Source: an uncultured Candidatus Peribacteria bacterium (GTDB taxonomy: Bacteria; Patescibacteriota; Gracilibacteria; BD1-5; UBA2023). From it: DNA of 29,142 nucleotides. Positions within the stretch are counted from its first letter, which is position 1. Every line of letters starts with the position of its first letter. Under the pieces are notes generated by a model. The model was not told the DNA's origin and searched no databases. It saw nothing but the letters and a program-made list of their open reading frames with translations. The translations under genes and the position numbers were made by a program. The stretch is from contig CAYUQQ010000003.1 of assembly GCA_964446905.1 (NCBI GenBank), positions 1-29,142 on the forward strand, read 5' to 3'. Below are positions 61-29,142 of the stretch, one piece after another.

Positions 61-927
61 TTAATAATTAATTAATTTATAATTTTTAAAACGAGTTTTA
101 TAAATAGATGTTATATCAGGTATTGTAGAAATAATAAATCAATTAAAATTTCCATATTTAATTAAATTATCAAAAATATCTATATTTTTATATTTATGAA
201 TATAACTAAAATTATATTTAATAAATATATCTTCTATATAAATAATATTATTGTATTTTTTAAGATTATATTGAAGAATTTTTCTAGTTCAAATAATAAT
301 ATTTTTTGTTTTATTAAAAATTTCTAAAAAAATTTTTGCTTTAGCATTATAAGTAAAAGAATTTTTATAAATAATAGCATTTTTTGTAAAATCTTTATTA
401 TTTTCTAAAAAATAAAAAACACTATAATCATCTGGAAAAACCAAAACACAGTCATCAATTTTTTTTAAAATATTTTCAATTATTTCTATAATGTTTTTAT
501 TTTTAATATTATAAATTAAAGATATTATATTATTATTTTTATTAATTTTTATAAAATCATCTTGATTGTTTATATTTTTAAAAGATTTTTTTAATAAAAA
601 ATTAAATATAAATTTTGGTAGAAAGATATTTAATATTTTATGAATTTGTACAAAATATTTACTTGATAAATAATAAATTAATTTAATTTGATATTCATCT
701 AAAACTGGATTATAACAAACAACATCAATAATAGATTTAATGTTATTCTCATTTTCATCAATATTTAAATCTAAAATTTTAGAAACAATTCAATATTTAA
801 TATTATTTTTTATAGGAATAGAAACTATGGATCATATATTAATATTATTTTTTAGTTTATCTTGTATAAAATATGTAAGTCACATATTATCTATAGATAC
901 ATCTAATGGTATTATTTCTATAAACAT
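61..927 (-). CDS. priA: Truncated PriA-like protein (288 aa): N-terminal 3'-DNA-binding region plus degenerate first helicase lobe
   Basis: Open in code 25. The N-terminus (MFIEIIPLD...GLTYFI...GSIVSIPIK...YGIVSK) matches the PriA N-terminal pattern; CVLVFPDDY and NIIIGTRKILQY match PriA VLVLVPE and VVIGTRSAL; no Walker A or DExH motif. Confidence 0.65.
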
Positions 928-950: not shown

Positions 951-1652
951 TTAAAGTCTAATTCAACATTTATTTACATATTGTTTAGCAATATTTTTAA
1001 ATTCAACTAATTCCTTATGAGTAAAGCTAGCTCAAATAAATTTTGGATTTAGATTAATTTCTGATTCATAATTTTGAATATAATAAGCTTTCGCTCATTT
1101 TATAAGTTTTCAGATATTTTCGATATCTTTTTTATTATGATAACCAGATACTACTGTAGTACGAAACTCATGATCAATTCAAGATTTTATAATTATTTTT
1201 ATACTTTCTTTATATGGTTTAGTATCAAAATTAATATTTATAATATTTCCATATTTTTTTATAGGATTTTTAATATCCATCGCAATATAATCAATAAGTT
1301 TTTCGTTTATCAATTTTTTTAAAATTTTTGGATCTCTACCATTTGAATCAAGTTTTACAAGAAATCACATTTCTTTAATTTTCTTTATAAATTCATAAAG
1401 ATCTTTTTGGAGAGTTGGCTCTCAACCTGAAATAACCACTCAATCTATAAATCAAACTCTTTTTTTGAGAAAATTAAAAAACGCATTTTCTAAAATTAAA
1501 TCATTTTTTAAAGTTTTAATTTTACTAGGCAAAACAAATTCTGGATTATGACAATAATGACAACGAAAATTGCATCATAAAGTAAAAATTATGGTTGCAA
1601 TTTTTCCAGGGTAATCCAGTAATGTTGATTTTTGTATTCAGGCGATTTGCAT
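951..1652 (-). CDS. nrdG: Anaerobic ribonucleotide reductase activating protein (radical SAM), 233 aa
   Basis: MQIAGIQKSTLLDYPGKIATIIFTLGCNFRCHYCHNP with a CxxxCxxC motif; VVISGGEPTLQ; lies downstream of nrdD. Confidence 0.95.
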
Positions 1653-1791: not shown

Positions 1792-1959
1792 CTAATATCC
1801 GTATTGAGCTATAAAGTCAGAATTAAAAGATTTTTTTTCATTAAAATAAGTTCTTCCATAATATTCAGATTTTTTACCTTCATTAAATTGACTTACGGGC
1901 CTGTGGTATCCCATTACACGAGTATAAATCTCGCATTTTGTTCTATTTTTTTCTTGCAT
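1792..1959 (-). CDS. Stand-alone NrdD C-terminal glycyl-radical peptide, 55 aa
   Basis: MQEKNRTKCEIYTRVMGYHRPVSQFNEGKKSEYYGRTYFNEKKSFNSDFIAQYGY*. The RVMGY..RPV..FN.GK..E..R pattern is the class III RNR glycyl-radical tail; own ATG, in-frame TAA just upstream, different frame from nrdD. Confidence 0.85.
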   Translation of the reverse strand: MQEKNRTKCEIYTRVMGYHRPVSQFNEGKKSEYYGRTYFNEKKSFNSDFIAQYGY

Positions 1960-1985
1960 AAATTAAAAAAATTAAAAAATAAATA

Positions 1986-4154
1986 TTATTTGTTTATATA
2001 TTTTTTTCTAAAATTTGAATCTATATCAGATCCTATATATCAAATTTCAATATCACATTTTGGACAATAATCATGTTCTCCTGGAATATATCCATGAATA
2101 GGACAAATAGAAAAGGTAGGAGAAATTGTAATATATGGTATTTGATAATTTGATATAACTTTTTTAATTAAAGCCTTACATGATTTTGAATCAGATAATC
2201 TTTCTCACATAAATATATGAAATACAGTTCATCATGTATATTTACATTGTAAATCGTTTTGCATTTCAAGAGCTTCAAATACATCATCACTAAATCATAC
2301 TGGTAATTGTGTAGAATTGGTATAATAAGGAGCCTCTTCTGTACCAGCCTGTATAATGCCTGGAAGATTTTTTTTATCTTCTCTGGCAAATCTATATGTA
2401 GTTCATTCTGCAGGAGTAGCTTCTAAGTTATATAAATTTCAAGTTTCTTCTTGATATTTTTTAAGATTTTCTCTTATATAATCCAAAATTTCTGTTGCAA
2501 ACTTAATTCATTCTTTTGTTGAAACATTTTCTTTTCAGTCAGTAAAATTTAAAATTGCTTCATTCATTCAATTTATTCAAATAGTAGAAAAATGATTTCT
2601 AAATGATTTTAAATAACGACAAGTATAAGGATAAAATCATCTTTCTAACCATTTTGTAATTTCTTCTCTTTTCATTTCTAGTGATGTTTTTGCTAAATCC
2701 ATAAGATATTTAATTTGATTTTTAAATCAAAGAACATCTCATTTAAAATTATATCCTATACGAGCCAAATTAATAGTAACTACTCAAATAGATCCTGTCA
2801 TTTCTGCTGATCCAAAAAGACCATTTCATCTTTTTACTAATTCTTTTAAATCAAGCTGTAATCTACAACACATACTTCTTACAGCGCCTGGTGAATATGC
2901 ATTTTCATTTCTTATTTTAATTATTTTTCAAGATTCATCTTTAACTTTTTTAAATTGTGATCCTATAAAATTTTGAAAATATGGAAGTCAATATTTTGCT
3001 GTCATTTCAAATAATGCTTCAGAATTTGGATCATCCCAATTAAAATCTTCTGTAATATTGTAAGTAGGAATTGGAAAAGTAAAAACTCTTCATTTCCAAT
3101 CTCATGCTGTATAAACCTCTATTAATGCTTTATTAATAAGAAGCATCTGTTTTTGCAATTCTCAAAATTTCTTTTTGTAAAGTCATTTATCATATCAACC
3201 TAAAAATAATGCTTTTTCTTTAAGGTCTTCTGGACAAACCCAGTCTAGTGTAATATTTGTAAAAGGGGTCTGAGTTCACCATCTAGATGGTGTGTTTAAT
3301 CAAAATATTAAATTTTGTAAATTTTGTGTAACATATTTATAAGTTTTTTCATTTATATATTCTTGTTTTTTTGTTTCAGATTCAAATTTAATATTGTATT
3401 TTTCAATATCTTCTTTTAACGATTCTTCATATTTATGAACAAAAGGAGCAAGATAGGTATCAAAAGATGAAAAAGCCTGAGCTCATGCCCATTCATTTTG
3501 TAAAACTCAAAAAAAATTGATTATTTGATTTACTGCAGATTGTAGATTTTTTGGAGGAGATGATTCTATTTTTGATGGCACTCAATTAAATCATTCTTCT
3601 AAAAGAGCTCTAAGACTCCATCATGCACAATATCAAGTAAACATACCCAAATCATGAATATGATAATCTCAATTTCTGTGAGCATTTCAAATTTCTGAAG
3701 TATATATGTGTGATAACCAATAATTAGCTGTGATTTTTTCTGAATTTTTTAATATTAATCAACCAATAGAATATCAAATATTTGCATTTTCATTTATTCT
3801 CCAATCTATATTTTGTAAGTACTCTTCCATAGTTTTTCATACTTCTACAACTACATTTTTATCAGCTCTCGCCTCATTTCTTTTTTGACGATATAAAATG
3901 TAGTTTTTTGCTACAGTATCATGACTATATTTTATTAAAACTTCTTCTACTTTATCTTGTATAAGCTCGATATCTGGTATATTTTTACCAGCAACAATAT
4001 CAACTTTTTCAATTATTTCATCTGTTAAAATTGGTACTTCATGAAAATCAGATCATCAAGAAGCTTCAATTGCCTTTTTTATAGCAAGTTCAATTTTAGT
4101 TCTATCAAAAGTTACGATAGTTCAATTTCTTTTTTTAACTTTAAATATGGCCAT
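1986..4154 (-). CDS. nrdD: Class III (anaerobic) ribonucleoside-triphosphate reductase, 722 aa, lacking the glycyl-radical tail
   Basis: N-terminal ATP cone (MAIFKVKKRNGTIVTFDRTKIELAIKKA); VRSMCCRL active-site motif; C-terminal metal site CPIHG..CPKC, followed by a short tail and TAA. Confidence 0.96.
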
Positions 4155-9923: not shown

Positions 9924-10175
9924 TTAATGCTTAACTATTTTTCAGTCTATAAATAAATTTTCTTTTAATTCTTTGTCAAAATTAGAATCATTTCTTCTTA
10001 TCCATTCAATTAACATAGCAGCATGTTCTTTTTCTTCATTACTGTTATGTATAAGAATTTCTTTTAATTCTGGATCAGAGCAATTTTCTGCTCTATGATT
10101 ATATAAATCAATAGCTTCTAATTCTTCTCTTAAAGAATCAATAGCCTTTTTTATATTTTCTATATCTATAGTCAT
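9924..10175 (-). CDS. Encapsulated-ferritin (EncFtn)-like protein, 83 aa
   Basis: AIDSLREELEAIDLYNHR...DPELKEILIHN.NEEKEHAAMLIEWIRRND...LFIDGKIVKH*; matches the EncFtn EELEA and EEKEH ferroxidase motifs; extends past the track ORF through a TGA (Gly). Confidence 0.88.
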
Positions 10176-14246: not shown

Positions 14247-17200
14247 CTACTTAAATAAAATTTTTTCTTTAAAGGCGTTTAATAAACTAAATAACTTCTC
14301 TCTTTCATCATAATTAAGTAAATATTGTGGTAAATTCACTTTTTTACCATTATCTTTCGTTATTTCTAACAGTTCTCATATACAACGTAATCGAAAAGCA
14401 AAAGCAGAAAGTTCTTTTACAATTTCTCATTCTAAAGGAGTAAAAATATTGTTTTTAATCAAAAAATCTATTTTACCTCCTGATCATAATACGTGCGCAG
14501 GTAAAGATCAAGATTGTTCTTTAAGTTCTTTTTTATCTTTAAGTAAACGAAAGATTAAAAAATCTATTTTAAAATTTATTGTTCTCTGAAGAGATATTTT
14601 TAAATTTTCAAGCATTTTTCAAGTACCAAGCGAATTATATAATGTATTAAAGCTCTCAATAAATGAAACCCCCTTCATTGATTTTATCTCCAAAGGCACT
14701 TGAGCAACTGAATCGTAATATTGAGAAAATTCGTTTTCAAAATAAAGTTTAAGTGCGTCTTCTCTAAGTTTTTGTTGAACAGAATCTTTAAAAAAAGGGC
14801 AAGTACTACTCATAGATGTAGGTTCAATTTCATGAAAACCACTAAAATTATTTAAATCCAAACTGAAGCTTGATATTTTTGTCATTGGTACTATTCATTT
14901 TCATCACTTGTTAAATTTACCAAAATCTATTCATCAAGATCATTCCCAATTATCTCTAATATTTAAAATAATTTTTTCTATTATATTAGATACTTCACTT
15001 ATTTGGTCTTGTGTCATATTTCTATCATCAACAACTATAACAAAGTCATTATCTGAATCAAAACCGCTTTCCATTCTACCAATGCTTCATATAAACATAG
15101 GACAAATTTTATCTTTATACTTTTCGTAATTTGGATACTTTTTACACATTCTTCACCAAATATTTCTTAAGCTTCTTTTTTTGGTATTTATTAATGTTTT
15201 TTGGATTTTTATTATTGATTGTATATCTAATTTTTCTGAATTTTTCTTAAATTTTCGGAACAAAATCTGATTAACAATATCTAAATATTTATAATAATTC
15301 TTAGATCATTTCGATATTCATAAATCTTCCAATTGTCTAATAAATTTTTTCATTATTTTATTATCTGGATTAACTTCGACTCTTTTGCCAGGTGCGGATC
15401 TTTTTATAAAAAATGTTTCTTTTATGCTTTTTATTCTTTTATCTAAAGTAAATTCTTTTACTGATTTAAGAAGCTCTGGAAAGTTATGCGAATTTTTTTC
15501 ATACCAGTCAGTTGATTTTGTATTTAAATGATTAGTATTCAAAAATTCTACCAATTGTACCATATCAAATAATTTTTGATCTGGATTATTTTTTTCATAC
15601 TCAAAAGCTGCATCCATTACTATTTTATGTTTTGGAGATTTTACTACAATACTATTAGACTCAGGTACAGAAGGCTTTAAATAATATGAGTAAACCGCGT
15701 CGATAATATCCATAGAATATCATTTATAATACAAATCATGATAAAACACCTTCATCTGATCAAATTCTTCTGGTGAAAAAAGTATTTTTTCTGTCATTTC
15801 ATGTATTACTGGAATAAAAAATCCATTGATTGCAATTGCTTTTTTTTGACTATTTAGTAGATCATTAAAATCTATAGATCCTCTGTTATTTATAATTATC
15901 GCTGTAATTTCTGTACTAGGAATTCAAAGATGAATACATTGATGAGCTATTCACATACTAAAACTACTATTTTTATCTCCATTAAGACCATATATTACAT
16001 TGTCATTTATTAGTATTTTTCAATAAATTCGATTTACGTTATGACCATGAGGATTTCAATATGATTGTAATCTTTCTGATAAATTTTTGTTACTTAGCTT
16101 TTGTATTTTTTTAGTTGTACATACGTGTGATCAAAAATTGTTTTCTTGAAAAAATGCCATTTCACCAAGTAAAGCATCGCATAATGTACCAGTATCTAAA
16201 ATTGAAAGAGTTACGTCTGGAGGTCCTACTTGAGATACACTAGTTTCAAATGGAATAGCAAGATCCACAAAATCTTCTTTGGTTTTTGCTTGTTTTAAAT
16301 TCTCGTATAATTCACGATTATATTTATCTGCTTCTATTACTACCTCTTTCATTCTTTTTAAATTAGATTTAATTTTTAATTCCTCTTCTTTGTCTATATT
16401 ATAATCAATATTATCATCTTCAAAGAATTCTCAATTTTCTCAAAAAAAGAAACTTGACAAATCTTGCGTTATACCTTCTAGTCAGCTTGTCTTATATTTT
16501 TTTATAGGCATTTCAAGTCTACGCAAATAATATTTTTTTAATTCTTCACTACCAGACAATACAAGTATTTCTTCAAAATCTCTTCTTACCACCAATTCTG
16601 TTGCTTCATTTATATTAATATTTTTTGATTGTGTTAATTTTATTATTTCATCAACAAATAGTTTATATTTTGAATCTCTTTCAGGTAAGTATTGATCCAA
16701 AAAAAGAGATCTTCTATCAATTATAGAATAATCACAACTAGAAAATATTCTTTTAATCTTATCTAATTTATTTTTTATTTCTTTCATTATTTGATCATTA
16801 TTTTTATTAGTTTCTTCATTTTTTTGTTTAATATATTTAATTAAATTTTGTATGACAATGTATTTTAATTTTCATAATTTTTGAGGATTATTAAATAATC
16901 TTTCAAGAGAAGGATCAATTTGAATTATTGAATCGATAATTAGTTTATATGGATCACAATTATTATTATTTAGAAACTTTTTAATTTTATTAAACTCATC
17001 TTCATCAAGAAAAAATTTACAGGTTGCTATATGTCTTAAATTAAGACAATTTATCTTAAATAAAAAATTATATGAGTAATATTTTTGGCAAATATCTTCA
17101 TTTTGTAGATTATCTTCCATTTTCAATGCAATTTTATCCTTATAAGATGACCACAAAGGTAATGATTTTATATGATGTATATATTCATATTCTGGTATTT

Positions 17201-19346
17201 TATCAATATATTTTATCCAGTGTGATATTTTTTCTTCTTCTGTATAAAAATTTTCTGGTATTTCTGAGTAATGTTGTATAATTGTTAATATATCCTTTTC
17301 TATTCATATATCCCAGAAGTCTTTATTATTTTTAAATTGAGACAATAAGTTCTCAGGAAGATTTGTATATTTTTCTAACAAAAAAGTTGGACAACTATTA
17401 ATAATATTTGGTGTTAAAAATTCTAATATAATTCACTTTAAATCAGAAAATTCTAATAAGTATTTAATGTCTTGACAATTTTTTCTTTTAAAAGCCTTTT
17501 CAGTTCCTGTTTGTAAAGATGTTTTAAAATCGGAACTATTATAATCAAATTTAATATTATTTTCGTCCAGATATTCAATTATTATTCAAGCACAATTACT
17601 TTCTCCATTATTAATTTCTTCTAATAATCTTTCTTTTAAAATTTTTTTTAGATCAATCTCAAATACAATATTATTTTCCTCCATGTATTTAATTATGCTA
17701 AACAATATTTTTGTATTTGTTTTTCAACTAATAGTTAAAGCTTCTTTATATATTTTATTATAATCAACTTTTATTCAATAAGATTTTACTAATTCAAATA
17801 TTTTTCTGTTATCAATAACTGGGAATTTATTCAAGGGAAATCCATACTTACTTAATATTTTTATCATTCAATTTTCGCAAAAATCTATTATATTTGGTCA
17901 TCAAAAATTTAAACTTATACCATCTGATTCAGCAATTTTAATAATTTTTTCTACAAATCATCCTATTCCAGATTGTAGAGATTTTTCGAGCTCAAACTGA
18001 TATATTTTTTGAATATCAAAACTTATTCATTTGCTTTTAATAAAGGTTATAATTTTATTTATTTCTTTTTTCCACAAACTTAGATAATCACTTTCCTCAT
18101 TAATAATTATTTTTTCTATATCACAGGTCTTATCAATATACAGCTGAAAAGCCTCATTATAATCTATAAATATTCCATTTTCTAAATATTGCTCAATTTT
18201 TTTGGTAAATTCATTCCAATTAAAAACTTTCTTAAATTCACTTATGAAATAATTTTGTATAAAATCTTTATTAAAATCAAGATAGACTCCTACTAATTTT
18301 GCATATCAAGCCAATTTATCAATATATCTTCTTCCGTTTTGAATATTTTCTTCAAATAATTCCTGAAAAACTTCTTTTATATTTAAATCAATATTATTTT
18401 TTTTAAAACAATCAATTAAAGTTTTAATATTATCAGATTTATTATAATAATAAGTGATTTCATTTTTAAAACAATTTTTAAAACAATCTTTAAATATTTT
18501 ATATAAATCAACATCTATTTTTTGTTTTTTTATTAAATTTAACAATTTTGAGATATTCTCTAATTTATCATATTCATTATATTTTAAATAAAAATTAATA
18601 TTTCTTTCAAGTCCTGTTGTACATGAATTTTTTGCTATATTTTCTTGATAATCAACTTTATATCAATTCTTGACTAATAAGTCAAGATATTTTGTATCAG
18701 CTGATTTTTTAATTTCACACCAAATAATAGAATTGTATGATGAAATTGCTATTGGATCTGTTAAGTCAATATTAGTCTTGTTTGTTACATTATTAATAAT
18801 GTCATCAAGCTGTTTTTTATAAGTATTTATTATGTCTAATGAAAATATGTCTATTTTAGATTTTATAGAATTTTGAATAATTTCTTCAATATTTAATTCT
18901 GATAATTCTCCTTCTTTAGTTCAATTATTAGCATATTTAGAAAGAGATTGAACTACTGAAAAAATAATTTCAATTAATTGTTCAGATAATTTTGGATATT
19001 TTTCTAAAATTTTTTTAAAAATTTCATCAATAAACATATTATAGATATCTTTTAAAACCTTATCCTTAAGATTATCATCAAAATTATTAAATATTTTTAA
19101 CTCTTTAAAAGTTTTTGCTGCTAAAAACGGTTTCATAATTTCAAATAATTTATCAAACATTGTATCTAAATCATCTTTATCTGTAATAAAATCAATGACA
19201 TTTGTGTTAGAATTTTGTAAATTTTCAACTTGATTTTTTACTCATTTTATTGTTTCATTTAATTGAGATGATCAAGAATCTTCACTTATATTATTAACTT
19301 CATTCTTTTTGTTATCTATTGGATCTATATTTACTCTTTGTTTCAT
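14247..19346 (-). CDS. Giant multidomain protein, 1699 aa, with a C-terminal GlnE/GlnD/DUF294-like nucleotidyltransferase
   Basis: Single code-25 frame from ATG 19346 to TAG 14247 that joins seven same-frame track ORFs; GSIGRMESGFDSDNDFVIVVD (G-x11-DxD) at 15089-15045 followed by a helical domain (FRLRCIGELL). Confidence 0.85.
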
Positions 19347-23450: not shown

Positions 23451-25286
23451 TTATTTTCAAGAGGATCAAAGTGCTGTAAATCAAGCAGCTCAAGCAGCAA
23501 TCAAAAAAGTATTCCATGCTATTCAAATCGTAATAATTGCTCATTTAAAGTAACATCATAATACTAAAGAAAATATCATAGCAGCAATAATTCAATAAAA
23601 AACTTTTGGATTTTTTTCTTTTATATTTCATAGTGCTTTGATAGCATCTTCTCATAACTCTAAAGACTTAAGCAATCATTTATATGTTCATTCATTAATT
23701 TTTGAACCTAAATATTCAGCAATATCTCAAATATATTTATTGGTTGGAGAATTTGCAAATTCAAGTAATTTGTCAGTTGTTACTGATATTGGTTTTCTTT
23801 TCATAATTATAAAAAGAATTGTCATATATAATTCAGAACACTCTCCTTTAGTCATTGAATCAAGATCTGTCTTTCAACCAGATACTGCATATAATGTTAA
23901 TAATTCTTTCATAGTAAAGCTATCTCAATTATTAAATTCGCCAATATGATCTTTAAATCAAAAAGCTCACATTACATTTAATATATCTTTTGAAAAACCT
24001 CATTCTTTTGTAATTTCTGTCAAAAAATTTTGAGCTTGTACATCTCTACAAGAACTATTTATTAAAGTATTTTTTCTATAAAACACAACTTCCGAATCTC
24101 AATCTTTTGTTAATAAAATTTTTTCAACAATCTCATGATTAAATCATTTTGATTTTAAAGATTCAATTTTATCTCAAACCAAACCACCATAAGTACCATT
24201 AGAATTTTTAGAAAATACCATATTTTGTATTTTTCATACAACATCATTCTTATTAGACCAATCAATTCACTCTATAATACCTTTTATTTTATCTATTTTT
24301 TCAAAACCAATTCATTTATATAAAGCATTTATTGATTCAAAAAGAGGGCGAGTTTTCCAATTTGGAAGAATATTACTTAAATTTTCATTTATCCATTCTT
24401 CATTATCTAAAATAGACTCTATTGCTAATTTTGCTGCTTTTTGGGTTTTTGGATCTTCTATTTTAGCAATATTTAATTCTTGAGGACAATTTTTATAATA
24501 TTGTAATTCTTGAAAAGATAAATTTTTTATAGTATCAGAATTAATTATATCAATAACTAATTTATTTGCATCATCCTTTTGTTTTTTTTCATCTTCTCAA
24601 AAAGTCCCATCCCAAGCTGCCTTACCTATAGAATCCCACCATCAATCAAATTTTACATTATTTTTTTTCCAATAAATATGATCTATCATTTTCGTATAAG
24701 AAAGATCTTTTATTGTTTCTGTTGTTTCTTTTTTTGTATCTGCTTGTGTTTCTTGAATATCATATTTTTGATCATCTCAAGATCATGTTTGTTCTCAATC
24801 ATTTTTTTGTGCCTCTTCTCAATGATTTTCAGGAACTTCAATATCAAAAAATTTAGCTAAAAAAGGGAGTTTTTTAGCTAACAATGTTCCTATTTTTTTT
24901 ATAAATTTATCCCACATGTCTCAAAATTTATCCCAAATTTGACCCAATGTATCCATAAAACCAAATTTTTCTGCAGCCGCTAAAGCAACTCATCATACTC
25001 ATGTTGCTCAAGCTACTTTTGCAACGGCTCCTTTTAAAGAAGGCTTAATGATCTTGTCTTTTAATTTAGGATCTTGTTTTTGAAAAGTTTCAACTATTTC
25101 TTGAGCTTCTTTTGGAGTTAAACTGTCTTTTAATTTATTCCATTTATCATTAGTTTCTCATTTTATTCCATTTATTACATTTTCAACTTTTCATGCTAAA
25201 ACATTCTTGCTTTTTTGTCTTAATTCAGAAATCAGCTGTTCTGGAGTTTGTATATTTAAACTTTCTTTTGATGTTTCTGCTGTCAT
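23451..25286 (-). CDS. Hypothetical membrane protein, 611 aa
   Basis: Open code-25 frame; Gly/Ala-rich segment (GAVAKVAGATGVGGVALAAA), WDKF repeats, C-terminal hydrophobic hairpin. Confidence 0.8.
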
Positions 25287-25358: not shown

Positions 25359-27167
25359 TTAAATTATATTATATGCATTATTTGGAAAAAAAATATTTAC
25401 ATCAAATAAATCTTTAAATTCTTTACAAAATTTATCATCTAATAATTTTTTAATTTTAATTTTTTCTTTTTTTGTTATTGGTTTTATATAGAGAGTGTTT
25501 CATTCTAACATTATAGATCAATTAAAACTTTCTCAATTTTGTGATATTTTGAAATGAAAAAATTTATAAAGAATATTTAATTTATTTTTTTCATTCATTT
25601 GTAAATAAATTTTTTTAATTTCATTTAAATTTAAGTTTCCTTTTTTATCAATAAATCAATCTTTTTTTAATTCATTATTTAATATTTTTTTATTTTTTTC
25701 AATATTTTCTAAATTAAAAAAATTTTTTACTGATTTTTCTACAAATTCTTTTTTGTATGTTTTTCCATTTGGAAAAACATATTCTCATGTTTCTGCATTA
25801 AGATATTTTGCTAAAATTAGTAAAATTGCCGTTATTGTGACTGTTAACGAAGCTACTCTTATTATTCAAACGGTTTTCTTTGCAATATATATAGATCCTA
25901 TAATAATTGATGTTATTGCGATTAGCTCAGGCCATTCGGTACTATGAAAAATTTCTACAAAACCTTCTGTTGTATTTTCAATAACTTCATCAATCTTATC
26001 TCATATCACTTGTTTAAGAATATTTTTAACTCAAGCAGGTAAAATATCTATATCTTTATATAAAGAATTTTTAAATATTTTATCGTAAGTTTCTCCTCTT
26101 GTTTTTATATCTTTTCATAATATTCACCAAATTTTTATAATTAATATTCAGTTTTCAACATCATTTAGTTTGTCATAATCTGTTTCTCATTGAGTTATAA
26201 TATAAAGTTCCAATAATTCTTTTATTGTTAAATCATTTTTTTGATTATTAAAAAATTTTTCAAATTTTTTTCTGTTGTTATTTTTTCAATTATCAAAAGA
26301 AAAATTATTTACTATTAAATTTTTAATTTTTCCATAAAAAGGAAATATTTTTTTATTAAATATATCTTTATCATCAGAATTTAAATGATCTGTACTTATT
26401 TCTTTTAAATTATTTTGTAATTCTCCAACCTTTATATCTTTATTTGTATGAGCAAAAATAAGAATTCTATCATTTAATCATAAACTAGCTGCTTTTTCTT
26501 TTAATTCTCATTCTCATTCTCATTTTTGTAAACTTACTTTTTTTATTAATTCTTCGCGAAAATTATTTAAACCATTTAATCCAATTTGAAAATTTATTTC
26601 TTTTAATTTCCCAAGTATTCATAAATCAGAACTTAAATTTAAAATTAAATCATTAATTTTTAAATTTAAAGGATCTTCACTTTTTGATTTGTATGATTTA
26701 TTTATAAGTTCTCTTCAATATCATGTTGATAAAATTTTACAAGCATAAAACAAAGCGTCTTTATTTTCATTCTTAAATCAATATTTAGAAGGAATTAAAT
26801 TATCATAATCTAATTTTGATAAGTCATCTATTTCTCTAAGTGTAAGTTTTTTAAATTTTTCATCTACAAATAATAATTGTATTTTACTAATAATATCTTT
26901 ATCTAAAGATGAATTGTTTTGTGTTTTTATTTGTATACAAAATGTTTCTACAAAAACTTTTACAGAAGTTTGATATTTAACATTATTTTTTACTTCTTCT
27001 AATTTTTGTTTTGTTTGAATATTGTTTAAAAATTCATCTAATGTTGGTCATTGGGGTTGTTTTGGTTGTGTAGTTTCTACTGGCACTCTATATATAGAAT
27101 CTCATCCCAATTGAGGAAGAGAAGGATCTATTAGTGTTCGATATATATTATTCTTTTCTGCCGCCAT
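25359..27167 (-). CDS. Hypothetical membrane protein, 602 aa
   Basis: Code-25 frame from ATG 27167 to TAA 25359 (ends and C-terminal third checked codon by codon, middle read through); hydrophobic hairpin LIAITSIIIGSIYIA...IIRVASLTVTITAILLILA. Confidence 0.75.
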
Positions 27168-27187
27168 ATTGTTTTTTAAATTAAAAA

Positions 27188-29142
27188 TTAAGCTCACCAT
27201 TTGACAGCTTGTCAGGTGGTGTCTATGTTGTCCAAAAACTCTTTTTGTCTTTTGTATTCAAGGATCATATTAAGTATATTTACAAATCATGTTTTAGTTT
27301 TTGGGTCATCGAGTAATTTGCTGTAAAAAGTATATTCTGAATTACAAAGAGTTTCTGTTTGGCCACTAAAATCATAACCATCATAATAGTCCAATTTCTG
27401 AATTTCACTATATCCTGGTAATTTTCATTTTGTAAGTATTGGCTGATGCTTAATCATTCTATCAAGTATTGATGTACAAAGTTTTTTATAAGCATCTGGA
27501 TATTGACTTTTCTTAGATTCCTCATTAATTTTCAATAATAATCAAATATATAAATTATTATTTTCTGTTTTCATATTTCTTATTCCTTCAGCATCCAGTT
27601 TCATATAATCACATATATTATTAATAGTATATTTTATATCATCATTTTTAAAATTTGGTCTTTCTATTTGATTTAAAATTGCTTCTATTAAAGCAAGTTT
27701 AAAAATATCAAATCATGTAAATTCTCCATCTCAAATCGCAGATAATAGCTTTGATTTAAAAATTTCTTTTTGTTGTTCTTTGTTATAATAAATCCAATCA
27801 TCACCTGTATATTCAGAACTATATTTTCAGCTTTTATATTCTCAAATTATTTTTATAAAATCTTTATTAAGATTATTTTTATATTCATCTACTTTATTAT
27901 TCCAAAAATTAACATCTCTACCATATGCAGCACTCATATATTCTCTTGGATTAGTGCTCATATCTACTTTGCCAAAAACTCAAAATCATTTTGCTTTATC
28001 AGATATATCATGGGCCACTCAATAATTAGTCACATAATGCATAATCATAGATTTTTTATCTGTCATTCATAGATTTTTTTCAGCCCAATCTTCTCTGTCT
28101 GGAGCAGTTTTCCAAAATAATATATCTGCTTTTTTCGTAGTTCAAGCAAAGCCAAGAGATGAGGCTCATATTCATCAAAGTACCAATCAAAGAGTAAGTC
28201 ATCCAATTTTTCACCATACTCATGGCATTTTTGAAGCAATTGTTGATCATAATCGTACACCAGCTTCAAAACCTCAATATTCTAATCATACTTTTCATAT
28301 AGAAACTAAGTCTTGACTATTGTGATGAATATTTTCGAAAAATACAGGTAAAAATACAACATGCATAGCATTTCAAAATCAAGCCAAAAGCCTACTCAAA
28401 GTAATTGATTTTAATATAAATTGATCTTTTGTTAATATTTTTGTTTTAGAAATAGCTTCATTTATAGTTTTTTGATTAATATCTGATTTTATATCTCAAG
28501 TTAATTTTAATTGTTTCTTCAAATACTCAGTATATTTTGTTTCTTGTAATACAATCTCCTGATTGGTTCTAATTTTTAAATCTTCAAATTGTTCTTTTGT
28601 AATTGGCTTATGTTTTAACCTTTTAAGAATTTCGGAATATTTTTCATAAGTTAATTTTTGTGTAATTTTTTTAAGATGCTCTATTCTTTGACTATGAGGC
28701 AATATTTTTTCAAACTTCATTATAGAAATATCAAGAAAAACAGATTTTGATTCCAATAATTTAAGTGTTTTTGATTTTAAAGCTTCTTTTGTTCATGTAA
28801 ATGTATTTTTTATATCAAAACTAACATTTTTTATTCCCTCAGGAGTTTCATAGTATATTTTTTTTATTGCATAAGTTCATGCTACTCAAGTACTAGCAAA
28901 AACCAAAATAGCAGCCCCTCAAAAAATTTTTTCTCATTTTAACATTTCTTCTTTTTCTTTTTTACTTTGAATCACTTTTTCATCTTTATCCTTTTTTGAC
29001 AATTTTTTATTTTCATTACTACTGTTTTGTTTTAAAAATTCCTCATAAGAAGAAACTGGTTTAATATTAATTATACCACTTTCTCCTGTTTTAAGAGTAT
29101 ATTTTAAAATATTATTTGAAATTTCTACTTGTATTATTTTTT
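27188..29142 (-). CDS. Hypothetical protein with glycine-zipper membrane segments (5' end outside the window, >650 aa)
   Basis: Open code-25 frame from the window edge to TAA 27188; IFGGAAILVFASTGVAGTYAI and PGVWGKIGGLTLGLVLGGIGASSLGFAG segments. Confidence 0.8.

What the first reader, a model, noticed from the sequence alone, without database searches (positions are those of the whole stretch)
1792..4154. Naturally split class III ribonucleotide reductase: the glycyl-radical loop is a separate 55-aa protein
Seen: NrdD keeps its ATP cone, the SMCCRL cysteines and the CPIHG..CPKC metal site, but stops 22 aa later with no RVxGY motif. That motif (CEIYTRVMGYHRPVSQFNEGKKSE) is on an independent ORF starting 26 nt downstream in another frame, with its own ATG, a stop just upstream of it, and nrdG next. 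Established: the RVxGY Gly carries the radical installed by NrdG and is cleaved on O2 exposure; GrcA/YfiD is an autonomous glycyl-radical spare part for pyruvate formate-lyase. Inference: an obligate two-component RNR with a replaceable radical subunit supplied in trans, so oxygen damage would cost only a peptide. I recall similar short NrdD-tail proteins annotated in some other bacteria, so the arrangement may not be unique; I do not know whether it has been characterised.
Basis: partly seen in the sequence, partly recalled or inferred. Interest (0 to 1): 0.85.

Follow-up and report, generated by a model that had tools for sequence, protein, structure and literature searches.

The report
Two-piece anaerobic ribonucleotide reductase
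The oxygen-sensitive enzyme that makes DNA building blocks is here encoded in two pieces, with the radical-carrying loop on its own 55-residue protein; the same split occurs in hundreds of bacterial species and the small piece alone in many phages, yet I found no paper that describes it.

Summary
Read with TGA as glycine (code 25), the window carries nrdD (722 aa, 4154..1986, minus strand), a 26-nt spacer, a 55-aa ORF (1959..1792) and nrdG (1652..951). NrdD covers the family profile up to the zinc ribbon. The small ORF covers only the last 34 positions, which hold the radical glycine (RVMGY).

It is not an indel or a frameshift. An independent metagenome has the identical junction. All 83 related loci that hold both parts are split, in all three relative frames, with spacing from a 41-nt overlap to a 960-nt gap. 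Proteobacterial copies have their own Shine-Dalgarno sites.

The arrangement is widespread. At least 594 species-level genomes carry this tail type, including Cupriavidus necator pHG1, C. metallidurans CH34, Ralstonia solanacearum, Paracoccus and Bradyrhizobium. RefSeq annotates both genes.

The small gene also occurs unlinked, and in 288 phage contigs, mostly without nrdD or nrdG nearby.

I found no paper describing it. A 2026 review says spare-part proteins are known only for formate-lyases.

Best reading: an obligate two-polypeptide class III reductase. Exchange of the radical peptide after oxygen damage is plausible but untested.

The parts
1986..4154 (-). nrdD 'body': tail-less class III ribonucleotide reductase catalytic subunit, 722 aa under code 25 (39 TGA = Gly codons), TAA stop at 1988-1986
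   Evidence: Pfam NRDD E = 2e-166, profile positions 1-528 of 562. NCBIfam NF006126 scores 1005.5 bits against a cut-off of 548. An AF2 model of a 79%-identical homologue matches NrdD structures.
3873..4142 (-). ATP-cone (allosteric activity domain), NrdD residues 5-94
   Evidence: Pfam PF03477, 67.7 bits; coordinates.
2859..2876 (-). Finger-loop motif SMCCRL (NrdD residues 427-432), the double-cysteine MCCR type
   Evidence: Sequence. The motif classes are described in PMC9669993 and PMC4493059.
2055..2105 (-). Zn-ribbon motif CPIHGYIPGEHDYCPKC (Cys-x2-His-x9-Cys-x2-Cys), NrdD residues 684-700. It is the last element shared with fused NrdD.
   Evidence: The pattern CP.HGY..GE....CP.C recurs, with minor substitutions, in nearly all related bodies. 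The T. maritima Zn site is CxxxHx6CxxC.
1989..2054 (-). Body-specific C-terminal extension DIEIGYIGSDIDSNFRKKYINK (22 aa). It has no counterpart in fused NrdD. In other Gracilibacteria it is a conserved extension of about 35 aa.
   Evidence: It is predicted helical in the homologue model. It is not homologous to the tail (hhalign probability 0.2%).
1960..1985 (-). 26-nt A/T-only spacer between the nrdD stop and the tail ATG, with no Shine-Dalgarno sequence. No gene in this window has one.
   Evidence: The spacer is identical in the independent contig L171.
1792..1959 (-). Glycyl-radical tail gene, 55 aa: MQEKNRTKCEIYTRVMGYHRPVSQFNEGKKSE... Proposed small subunit that carries the radical glycine.
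   Evidence: Pfam NRDD profile positions 529-562 of 562. It aligns to T. maritima NrdD residues 610-644 around Gly621. It has 136 stand-alone homologues of 48-89 aa and 21 invariant positions.
1909..1911 (-). Codon GGA for Gly17 of the tail, the predicted radical site within RVMGY
   Evidence: It aligns with Gly621 of T. maritima NrdD.
951..1652 (-). nrdG, radical-SAM activase, 233 aa, with CNFRCHYC at residues 27-34
   Evidence: NCBIfam TIGR02495 (NrdG2) scores 214 bits against a cut-off of 131.15; Pfam Radical_SAM also matches. No terminator-like site lies between nrdD, the tail and nrdG.

Best explanation
The window comes from a TGA=Gly (code 25) Gracilibacteria/Absconditabacteria-type genome. 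It carries a three-gene class III ribonucleotide reductase operon, nrdD-body / tail / nrdG, in which the catalytic subunit is naturally split at the boundary between the Zn ribbon and the glycyl-radical loop.

Shown by sequence and comparison:
- The body keeps the ATP-cone, the barrel, the MCCR finger loop and a complete Cys3His Zn ribbon, but lacks the radical glycine.
- The 55-aa protein consists only of the glycyl-radical loop and the short segment after it.
- The split is conserved in hundreds of species.
- The tail is translated from its own start codon.

Inferred mechanism:
- The tail docks into the body's barrel where the C-terminal loop of fused NrdD sits.
- NrdG with S-adenosylmethionine abstracts the C-alpha hydrogen of tail Gly17.
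- The glycyl radical then generates the thiyl radical on the finger-loop cysteine, and nucleotide reduction proceeds as in fused enzymes. Reduction is probably redoxin- and/or formate-dependent, as proposed for MCCR-type enzymes.
- The enzyme is therefore an obligate heteromer (body2 tail2) plus the activase.

More speculative, about 0.35-0.4: because the radical site sits on a cheap separate peptide, an oxygen-cleaved tail can be exchanged for a fresh one. Phages would exploit this by bringing extra tail copies.
For: 1. Anatomy. The family profiles are cut cleanly between the body and the tail.

2. Not an artefact. The junction is identical in the independent contig L171, and differs (75-nt spacer) in L170.

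3. Conservation.
- All 136 tail homologues are 48-89 aa.
- All 120 closest bodies lack RVxGY.
- All 83 loci that hold both parts are split. Relative frames 0, +1 and +2 occur 17, 28 and 38 times. Spacing runs from -41 to +960 nt.
- Standard-code genomes have two separately called genes.

4. Independent translation. Canonical AGGAG/AAGGAG sites lie 5-10 nt before the tail ATG in 32 proteobacteria-type loci, including pHG1, CH34 and Bradyrhizobium. No gene in this window has a Shine-Dalgarno site, so its absence here is normal.

5. Purifying selection. Twenty-one positions are invariant across genomes from 21% to 73% G+C.

6. Action in trans. Seven cellular loci, and 77 of the 80 viral loci held, have the tail without nrdD or nrdG within 4 kb. 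The phage context is confirmed.

7. Function of the split type. [quoted passage not shown]

8. Fused relatives have only 8-10 residues between the CxxC and the RVxGY. The break is therefore at a domain linker.
Against: - There is no biochemical evidence. Nobody has shown a radical on the small protein, a body-tail complex, or dependence of activity on the tail.
- I could not model the complex, because no multimer prediction was available.
- The window is only 29 kb, so a second, fused nrdD elsewhere in this genome cannot be excluded.
- A crude tree interleaves split and fused forms (11 state changes among 67 representatives). The history of the split is unresolved, and some representatives scored as tail-less may be truncated gene calls.
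- Replaceability rests only on gene distribution. Viral contigs were inspected only within 4 kb of the tail.
Confidence: 0.85

Rival explanations
1. Neutral gene fission. The split arose at a flexible linker and persists because the tail binds permanently. The enzyme behaves exactly like fused NrdD and gains nothing in repair or regulation. Phage and unlinked copies would be incidental cargo or dosage effects.
For: - The break falls at a short linker between the Zn ribbon and the Gly loop.
- Fused and split forms are interleaved among close relatives.
- Another RNR class has a tolerated split, NrdJa/NrdJb.
- The tail is nearly always adjacent to the body and co-oriented with it.
Against: - The tail type occurs in 288 viral contigs, usually without nrdD or nrdG nearby. 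That is hard to explain if extra tail has no effect.
- Gracilibacteria bodies have gained a conserved C-terminal extension, which suggests adaptation to the split state.
Confidence: 0.45
2. Sequencing or assembly indel, or a decaying pseudogene. The true gene would be a normal fused nrdD.
For: The region is a homopolymer-rich A/T tract where indels are common.
Against: - The junction is identical in an independent metagenome.
- All 83 related loci are split, with different spacers and frames.
- RefSeq complete genomes show two genes.
- About 22 body residues, 26 nt and 6 tail residues have no counterpart in fused NrdD.
Confidence: 0.01
3. Programmed ribosomal frameshifting or stop read-through produces a fused NrdD. 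The small ORF would not be a separate protein.
For: The two ORFs are close together and on the same strand. Some relatives overlap by up to 41 nt.
Against: - In the window the body stop lies upstream of the last stop in the tail frame, so no single shift can fuse the ORFs.
- Relatives use all three relative frames, with gaps up to 960 nt.
- The tails have their own Shine-Dalgarno sites.
- Unlinked and phage-borne tails exist.
- No Rfam element lies in this region.
Confidence: 0.02
4. The small protein is a decoy or regulator rather than the catalytic radical carrier. It might, for example, titrate NrdG or block the body, and in phages act as an inhibitor of host RNR. The body would obtain its radical in some other way.
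For: Stand-alone copies sit in phages beside lysis and integration modules, a position typical of morons and host-manipulation genes.
Against: - The body has no other glycine motif.
- The tail keeps the canonical R-V-x-G-Y radical motif and the flanking positions seen in fused NrdDs, which fits catalysis rather than mimicry.
- The body-tail-activase order is the rule.
Confidence: 0.05

Closest known systems
Canonical fused class III RNR NrdD with NrdG, in particular the double-cysteine (S/M)CCR lineage. Examples are T. maritima NrdD (RNRdb NrdDh; PDB 4COI, 4U3E) and N. bacilliformis NrdD.
   Same: - ATP-cone, barrel and MCCR finger loop.
- Cys/His Zn ribbon placed before the Gly loop.
- RVxGY loop sequence.
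- Adjacent radical-SAM activase.
- The body scores 1005 bits against NF006126, and the homologue model matches NrdD structures.
   Different: - The glycyl-radical loop is a separate gene product.
- About 22 extra residues end the body and about 6-25 variable residues start the tail.
- Reviews describe class III RNR as NrdD plus NrdG only.
GrcA/YfiD of E. coli and Y06I of phage T4: autonomous glycyl-radical cofactors, spare parts for pyruvate formate-lyase
   Same: - A small stand-alone protein that carries a glycyl-radical loop.
- Presumably radicalised by the partner enzyme's activase.
- Also encoded by phages.
   Different: - No sequence relationship: there are no Gly_radical or GrcA profile hits.
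- The partner is an RNR, not PFL.
- The partner is genetically tail-less, so the small protein is obligatory rather than a repair part.
- It is 55 aa, against about 127 aa for GrcA.
Split class II RNR NrdJa/NrdJb of Pseudomonas aeruginosa
   Same: The RNR catalytic polypeptide is encoded by two consecutive ORFs a few bases apart. The C-terminal functional module is on the second ORF.
   Different: - It is B12-dependent class II.
- The second piece carries the Zn-finger and redox cysteines, not the radical site.
- It is described as exceptional, whereas the class III split is widespread.
Accessory small subunits of glycyl radical enzymes (HPAD gamma, BSS beta/gamma, MASS beta/gamma/delta)
   Same: Small polypeptides that complete a glycyl radical enzyme.
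   Different: - Those are Fe-S or rubredoxin-like proteins that do not carry the radical.
- The tail has a single conserved Cys and does carry the radical glycine.
Genes-in-pieces class Ia RNR of Aeromonas phage Aeh1: nrdA split by a homing endonuclease gene (recalled from my own knowledge, not checked here)
   Same: A functional RNR large subunit assembled from two separately translated pieces.
   Different: - It is class I.
- The split is caused by an inserted mobile endonuclease gene. No such gene lies at the junctions here, although relatives carry inteins elsewhere in the body.

Membership tests
Class III RNR catalytic subunit NrdD (Pfam PF13597; NCBIfam NF006126 / TIGR02487) | Whole-protein profile score above the curated cut-off | tested here: met
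   NF006126 scores 1005.5 bits (cut-off 548). TIGR02487 scores 447 bits (cut-off 326). PF13597 has E = 2e-166.
Class III RNR catalytic subunit NrdD (Pfam PF13597; NCBIfam NF006126 / TIGR02487) | Ten-stranded alpha/beta barrel fold of NrdD | tested here: met
   The AF2 model of the 79%-identical homologue P0122 has pLDDT 74.5 and pTM 0.71. Its top 36 Foldseek PDB hits are all NrdD, with E from 7e-30 to 3e-18. The window's own protein could not be submitted.
Class III RNR catalytic subunit NrdD (Pfam PF13597; NCBIfam NF006126 / TIGR02487) | Finger-loop cysteine motif and Zn ribbon before the C-terminal loop | tested here: met
   SMCCRL lies at residues 427-432 and CPIHG..CPKC at 684-700. The motifs are as described.
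Class III RNR catalytic subunit NrdD (Pfam PF13597; NCBIfam NF006126 / TIGR02487) | Glycyl-radical motif RVxGY at the C-terminus of the same polypeptide | tested here: not met
   The body ends at profile position 528 of 562. The motif lies on the separate 55-aa ORF. The same holds for the 120 closest bodies.
Class III RNR catalytic subunit NrdD (Pfam PF13597; NCBIfam NF006126 / TIGR02487) | Cognate radical-SAM activase NrdG | tested here: met
   TIGR02495 (NrdG2) scores 214 bits (cut-off 131.15). The gene lies directly downstream on the same strand.
Class III RNR catalytic subunit NrdD (Pfam PF13597; NCBIfam NF006126 / TIGR02487) | Glycyl radical formed, and NTP reduction | not testable with these tools
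   This needs anaerobic reconstitution, EPR and an activity assay.
GrcA/YfiD autonomous glycyl radical cofactor (spare part) | Small stand-alone protein with a glycyl-radical loop | tested here: met
   A 55-aa ORF with RVMGY.
GrcA/YfiD autonomous glycyl radical cofactor (spare part) | Homology to the PFL C-terminal glycyl-radical domain (Pfam Gly_radical PF01228 or the NCBIfam GrcA models) | tested here: not met
   Only NrdD models match the tail. No Gly_radical or GrcA hit appears at E <= 0.01.
GrcA/YfiD autonomous glycyl radical cofactor (spare part) | The partner is a full-length enzyme that has its own glycyl domain, which is replaced only after O2 cleavage | tested here: not met
   The partner body is genetically tail-less here and in all 83 linked loci.
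GrcA/YfiD autonomous glycyl radical cofactor (spare part) | Restores activity of the oxygen-damaged enzyme | not testable with these tools
   Biochemical test.
Split class II RNR (NrdJa/NrdJb) | Catalytic subunit encoded by two consecutive ORFs | tested here: met
   A 26-nt spacer separates the ORFs.
Split class II RNR (NrdJa/NrdJb) | B12-dependent class II homology | tested here: not met
   Class II models match only through the ATP-cone and score far below their cut-offs.
[quoted passage not shown] | Cys-rich Fe-S or rubredoxin-like small protein that does not carry the radical | tested here: not met
   The tail has one conserved Cys and carries the RVxGY glycine.

The most novel reading that the evidence does not exclude
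The NrdD tail is an exchangeable, consumable radical subunit, a spare-part system for ribonucleotide reductase. After oxygen cleaves the peptide at Gly17, the fragments leave and a fresh tail is installed and re-radicalised by NrdG. Phages, both temperate and lytic, carry their own tail genes to keep or boost host anaerobic dNTP synthesis during infection. This would be the first spare-part or auxiliary glycyl-radical protein outside the formate-lyases, and a new class of phage auxiliary metabolic gene.
Probability: 0.35. Interest if true: 0.88.

Novelty: new variant of a known kind. Interest (0 to 1): 0.74.

Why it matters
Class III RNR is described in the reviews as NrdD plus NrdG, with the glycyl radical on NrdD's own C-terminus. 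The 2026 review of glycyl radical enzymes states that spare-part proteins are known only for formate-lyases. It lists no small subunit that carries the radical. The PFL spare-part paper explicitly asks whether such proteins exist for other glycyl radical enzymes.

A large, overlooked clade has the radical on a separate 6-7 kDa peptide. It includes tractable organisms:
- C. necator H16
- C. metallidurans CH34, where the genome paper lists NrdDG as Rmet_5137 and Rmet_5139 and skips 5138
- Paracoccus denitrificans
- Bradyrhizobium
- Ralstonia solanacearum

If confirmed, this has several consequences:
- It changes the stated subunit composition of this enzyme class.
- It offers a natural system for studying how an activase recognises and radicalises a glycyl loop outside the barrel.
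- It makes the repair question directly testable.
- It suggests that hundreds of phages manipulate host anaerobic dNTP supply with a gene of about 50 codons that PHROGs files as 'unknown function'.
- It warns annotators and RNR surveys, which filter out sequences under 400 aa, that these bodies are not complete enzymes.

Tried and rejected
1. Inter-subunit metal site (tail Cys9 as the fourth Zn ligand). I do not favour this. The body already has a full Cys-x2-His...Cys-x2-Cys ribbon like the CxxxHx6CxxC site seen in the T. maritima structure. Fused relatives have Thr or Cys at the equivalent position. Why Cys9 is invariant remains unexplained.

2. Body C-terminal extension as a degenerate duplicate of the Gly loop (it contains 'IGY'). 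Rejected: hhalign of the extension against the tail gives probability 0.2%.

3. Frameshift, read-through and indel were all rejected (see the rival explanations).

4. Counting fission events. A crude NJ tree of 67 representatives interleaves split and fused forms, with 11 Fitch changes. Inteins and fragments make it unreliable, so I draw no conclusion.

I used homologue P0122 instead.

6. The papers of Siedow 1999 and Wei 2014 are not held. I could not check whether either mentions the small ORF.

7. Cultured-phage records (INPHARED) hold no close tail homologue. There are only two weak hits.

8. No Rfam family lies in this region, and there is no terminator between the three genes.

9. Six full-text searches found no description of a split NrdD.
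Full report
**1. Observation**

The window is 21.8% G+C. Under the standard code it breaks nrdD and nrdG into fragments. In nrdG, TGA falls on the invariant glycines of the radical-SAM motifs: 'TL[TGA]CNFRCHYCHN' and 'SG[TGA]EPT'. nrdD has 39 in-frame TGA codons. The organism therefore reads TGA as Gly (code 25).

Under that code the minus strand carries, in order:
- nrdD at 4154..1986, 722 aa, ending in TAA
- 26 nt of pure A/T
- a 55-aa ORF at 1959..1792
- 139 nt of intergenic sequence
- nrdG at 1652..951

- ATP-cone at residues 5-94
- SMCCRL at residues 427-432
- CPIHG...CPKC at residues 684-700
- 22 further residues, then the stop
- the tail in a different frame, with a stop two codons before its ATG
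- RVMGY at tail residues 14-18

Profile searches show a clean cut:
- Pfam NRDD positions 1-528 of 562 lie on the body and 529-562 on the tail.
- NCBIfam NF006126 positions up to 650 of 684 lie on the body and 649-683 on the tail.
- T. maritima NrdD residues 101-608 align to the body. Residues 610-644, which include Gly621, align to the tail.

About 19-22 body residues, the spacer and about 6 tail residues have no counterpart in fused enzymes.

**2. Not an artefact and not a frameshift**

The contig L171, from an unrelated JGI metagenome, has a DNA-identical junction (TAA, 26 nt, ATG). The C-terminal part of its tail differs. A more distant Gracilibacteria genome (L170) has a longer body extension and a 75-nt spacer.

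In the window, the body's stop precedes the last stop in the tail frame. No single frameshift can join the two ORFs.

**3. How widespread it is**

- All 136 database homologues of the tail are proteins of 48-89 aa.
- None of the 120 closest NrdD bodies has an RVxGY motif.
- In standard-code genomes, where gene calling is not confounded by TGA, the two parts are separate called genes. L001 has a 701-aa body and a 64-aa tail that overlap by 41 nt. L004 has a 592-aa body and a 56-aa tail 16 nt apart.

Among the loci I hold, 83 contain both parts, and every one of them is split:
- relative frame 0 (with an in-frame stop) in 17 loci, +1 in 28, +2 in 38
- spacing from a 41-nt overlap to a 960-nt gap, median 32 nt

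The hosts include:
- Patescibacteria: Gracilibacteria, Absconditabacteria, Peribacteria, Magasanikbacteria, Moraniibacteriota, Uhrbacteria and Nomurabacteria
- Omnitrophota and Chthoniobacter
- many Proteobacteria

The plasmid and chromid collection adds Ralstonia solanacearum (132-133 records), Cupriavidus metallidurans CH34, C. necator H16 pHG1, Paracoccus denitrificans and P. versutus, Bradyrhizobium, Cereibacter and Allochromatium.

RefSeq annotates three genes in these loci: a 'ribonucleoside triphosphate reductase', a 63-66-aa 'nrdD anaerobic ribonucleoside-triphosphate reductase', and the activase.

**4. The tail is translated on its own and is under selection**

In 32 proteobacteria-type loci the tail ATG is preceded by a canonical AGGAG/AAGGAG site at 5-10 nt. 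These loci include pHG1, CH34 and Bradyrhizobium. The Patescibacteria loci lack such sites. So do all 20 genes of this window, so the A/T-only leader here is normal for the organism.

Twenty-one tail positions are invariant in a 17-sequence alignment, and the genomes that carry the tail range from 21% to 73% G+C.

In some relatives the radical glycine itself is encoded by TGA. It appears as 'RVMWY' in code-4 translations. This independently supports TGA = Gly.

**5. Where the break lies**

In the T. maritima structure, a Zn ribbon (CxxxHx6CxxC) is inserted between the last barrel strand and the C-terminal loop that bears Gly621.

The motif CP.HGY..GE....CP.C, with minor substitutions, is present in nearly all split bodies. 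The body therefore keeps a complete metal site. The tail is only the radical loop plus the short segment that follows it.

Among the best 150 cluster representatives of a body search, 64 are tail-less, 55 are fused and 31 could not be scored because no Zn motif was found (mostly fragments). The fused forms have only 8-10 residues between the CxxC and RVxGY. A few fused forms carry the RVMGY-type loop typical of the split tails: P0251, P0256, P0309 and P0323.

The fission therefore occurred at a short domain linker within the double-cysteine (MCCR) lineage.

A crude tree interleaves split and fused forms, so I cannot say how many times the fission happened.

Gracilibacteria bodies have a conserved extension of about 35 aa after CPKC. 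It is predicted helical at moderate confidence. It is not homologous to the tail. The window's version is shorter, at 22 aa.

The AF2 model of a 79%-identical body matches only NrdD structures at the top of a PDB fold search.

**6. Evidence that the tail acts in trans**

In seven cellular loci the tail gene has no nrdD or nrdG within 4 kb. In L061 it follows the ATP synthase genes. In L043 it sits in what looks like a prophage.

IMG/VR holds 288 viral contigs with this tail type. In the best 80 of these:
- the tail is a 42-93-aa stand-alone ORF, usually with a Shine-Dalgarno site
- 77 have no nrdD or nrdG homologue in the DNA held

The surroundings are phage genes: endolysin, integrase, tail fibres and helicase.

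Several of these phage tails are interrupted by TGA under code 11, as expected for phages of code-25 hosts. Others closely resemble the Parasutterella tail (compare L082 with L118-L124).

PHROGs places the tails in phrog_4132, 'unknown function'.

One viral contig (L148) has the full split arrangement. Two others (L136, L138) have a body about 2.8 kb downstream of the tail.

**7. Mechanism**

Shown: the gene anatomy, its conservation and independent translation.

Inferred:
- The tail occupies the barrel position of the C-terminal loop of fused NrdD.
- NrdG radicalises Gly17.
- The radical passes to the finger-loop cysteine.

The enzyme would then be an obligate heteromer.

Genetic support is indirect. 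The CH34 genome paper reports that the pHG1 nrdDG genes are essential for complete denitrification in strain H16, and that cobalamin rescues the defect. The pHG1 locus is the split type. I could not read the original paper.

The only evidence for it is the phage-borne and unlinked copies. A neutral fission with a permanently bound subunit remains a serious rival.

**8. What is known**

- The split class II enzyme of P. aeruginosa is called exceptional.
- The 2026 review of glycyl radical enzymes lists small subunits only for HPAD, BSS and MASS, none of which bears the radical. It states that spare parts are known only for formate-lyases.
- The PFL spare-part paper says only YfiD and T4 Y06I are validated, and speculates about other enzymes.
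- The CH34 genome paper lists NrdDG as Rmet_5137 and Rmet_5139, skipping the intervening gene number.
- A large RNR phylogeny discarded sequences under 400 aa, so it could not have seen the tails.

Six full-text searches found no description of a split NrdD. Subscription literature was not searchable, so prior mention cannot be excluded.

The tail is not a GrcA family member: it gives no Gly_radical or GrcA hit. It resembles GrcA only in how it would work.

**9. Verdict**

The split is real, ancient enough to span phyla, and common. The window is one ordinary member of that clade.

What is new is the clade itself. It is a variant of a well-known enzyme that databases annotate but that no paper I could search describes. 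The unexpected phage-borne stand-alone tails add to it.

Confidence that this is a genuine two-polypeptide class III RNR is 0.85. Confidence that the tail is an exchangeable spare part is about 0.35.

Noticed in passing
L090-L169 (IMG/VR viral contigs), e.g. L119:4001-4165, L117:4001-4129, L161:4001-4123: 288 viral contigs encode an NrdD-type glycyl-radical tail as a small stand-alone ORF. In 77 of the best 80, no nrdD or nrdG lies within the DNA held. The flanking genes are endolysin, integrase, tail fibres and helicase. PHROGs files the tail under phrog_4132, 'unknown function'. Whole contigs were not inspected.
   Followed up: partly
L043, L048, L058, L061, L065, L072, L077 (tail at about 4001-4140 in each): In these cellular genomes (an Oxalobacter MAG and gut alphaproteobacterial MAGs) the tail gene is unlinked from any nrdD or nrdG within 4 kb. 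In L061 it follows atpAGDC. In L043 it sits beside a lysozyme-like gene, probably in a prophage.
   Followed up: partly
whole window; nrdG 1652..951 and nrdD 4154..1986: TGA is read as glycine (code 25), G+C is 21.8%, and none of the 20 genes has a Shine-Dalgarno sequence. In some relatives (P0042, P0072, P0096) the radical glycine itself is a TGA codon, seen as 'RVMWY' in code-4 translations.
   Followed up: yes
P0244, P0299, P0256 and many other representatives: Many relatives of this NrdD, both tail-less and fused, are 800-1800 aa long because they carry one or more inteins. Intein_splicing and LAGLIDADG domains were confirmed in three of them.
   Followed up: partly
window 1989-2054 (-); P0122-P0240 C-termini: Gracilibacteria/Absconditabacteria bodies end in a conserved extension of about 35 aa after CPKC (D.E.GY.G..FD...R..YT.D..K..L). 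It is absent from fused NrdD and from proteobacterial split bodies. It is predicted helical. Its function is unknown. The window's copy is truncated to 22 aa.
   Followed up: partly
window 1933-1935 (-), tail Cys9: A cysteine eight residues before the radical glycine is invariant in all split tails. T. maritima has Val there, and fused relatives have Thr or Cys. Its role is unexplained. The body's Zn ribbon is already complete.
   Followed up: partly
L001:5206-5448 and L002:5206-5448: A glutaredoxin-like gene sits between the tail and nrdG in a standard-code relative. This fits a redoxin-dependent reduction mechanism for this MCCR-type enzyme. In L170, two extra ORFs (45 and 337 aa) lie between the tail and nrdG.
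   Followed up: no
L088 (C. metallidurans CH34 megaplasmid) and PMC2864759: The CH34 genome paper names NrdDG as Rmet_5137 and Rmet_5139. From the gene order at the locus, the skipped number should be the 63-aa tail ORF that lies between them; the record shown carries no annotation, so I did not confirm the locus tag.
   Followed up: yes
window 9924-10175 (-): An 83-aa EncFtn-like (encapsulated ferritin) protein (Pfam PF22277, 111 bits). I noticed no obvious encapsulin shell gene next to it; the neighbours are dnaK and a membrane protein.
   Followed up: no
window 61-927 (-): A 288-aa protein that matches only the PriA 3'-DNA-binding domain, much shorter than a normal PriA helicase. It may be a truncated or split priA.
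   Followed up: no
window 14247-19346 (-): A 1700-aa ORF rich in Asn, Lys and Ile. I did not scan it against any family library. Two further large ORFs (23451-25286 and 25359-27200, both minus strand) were also left unexamined.
   Followed up: no
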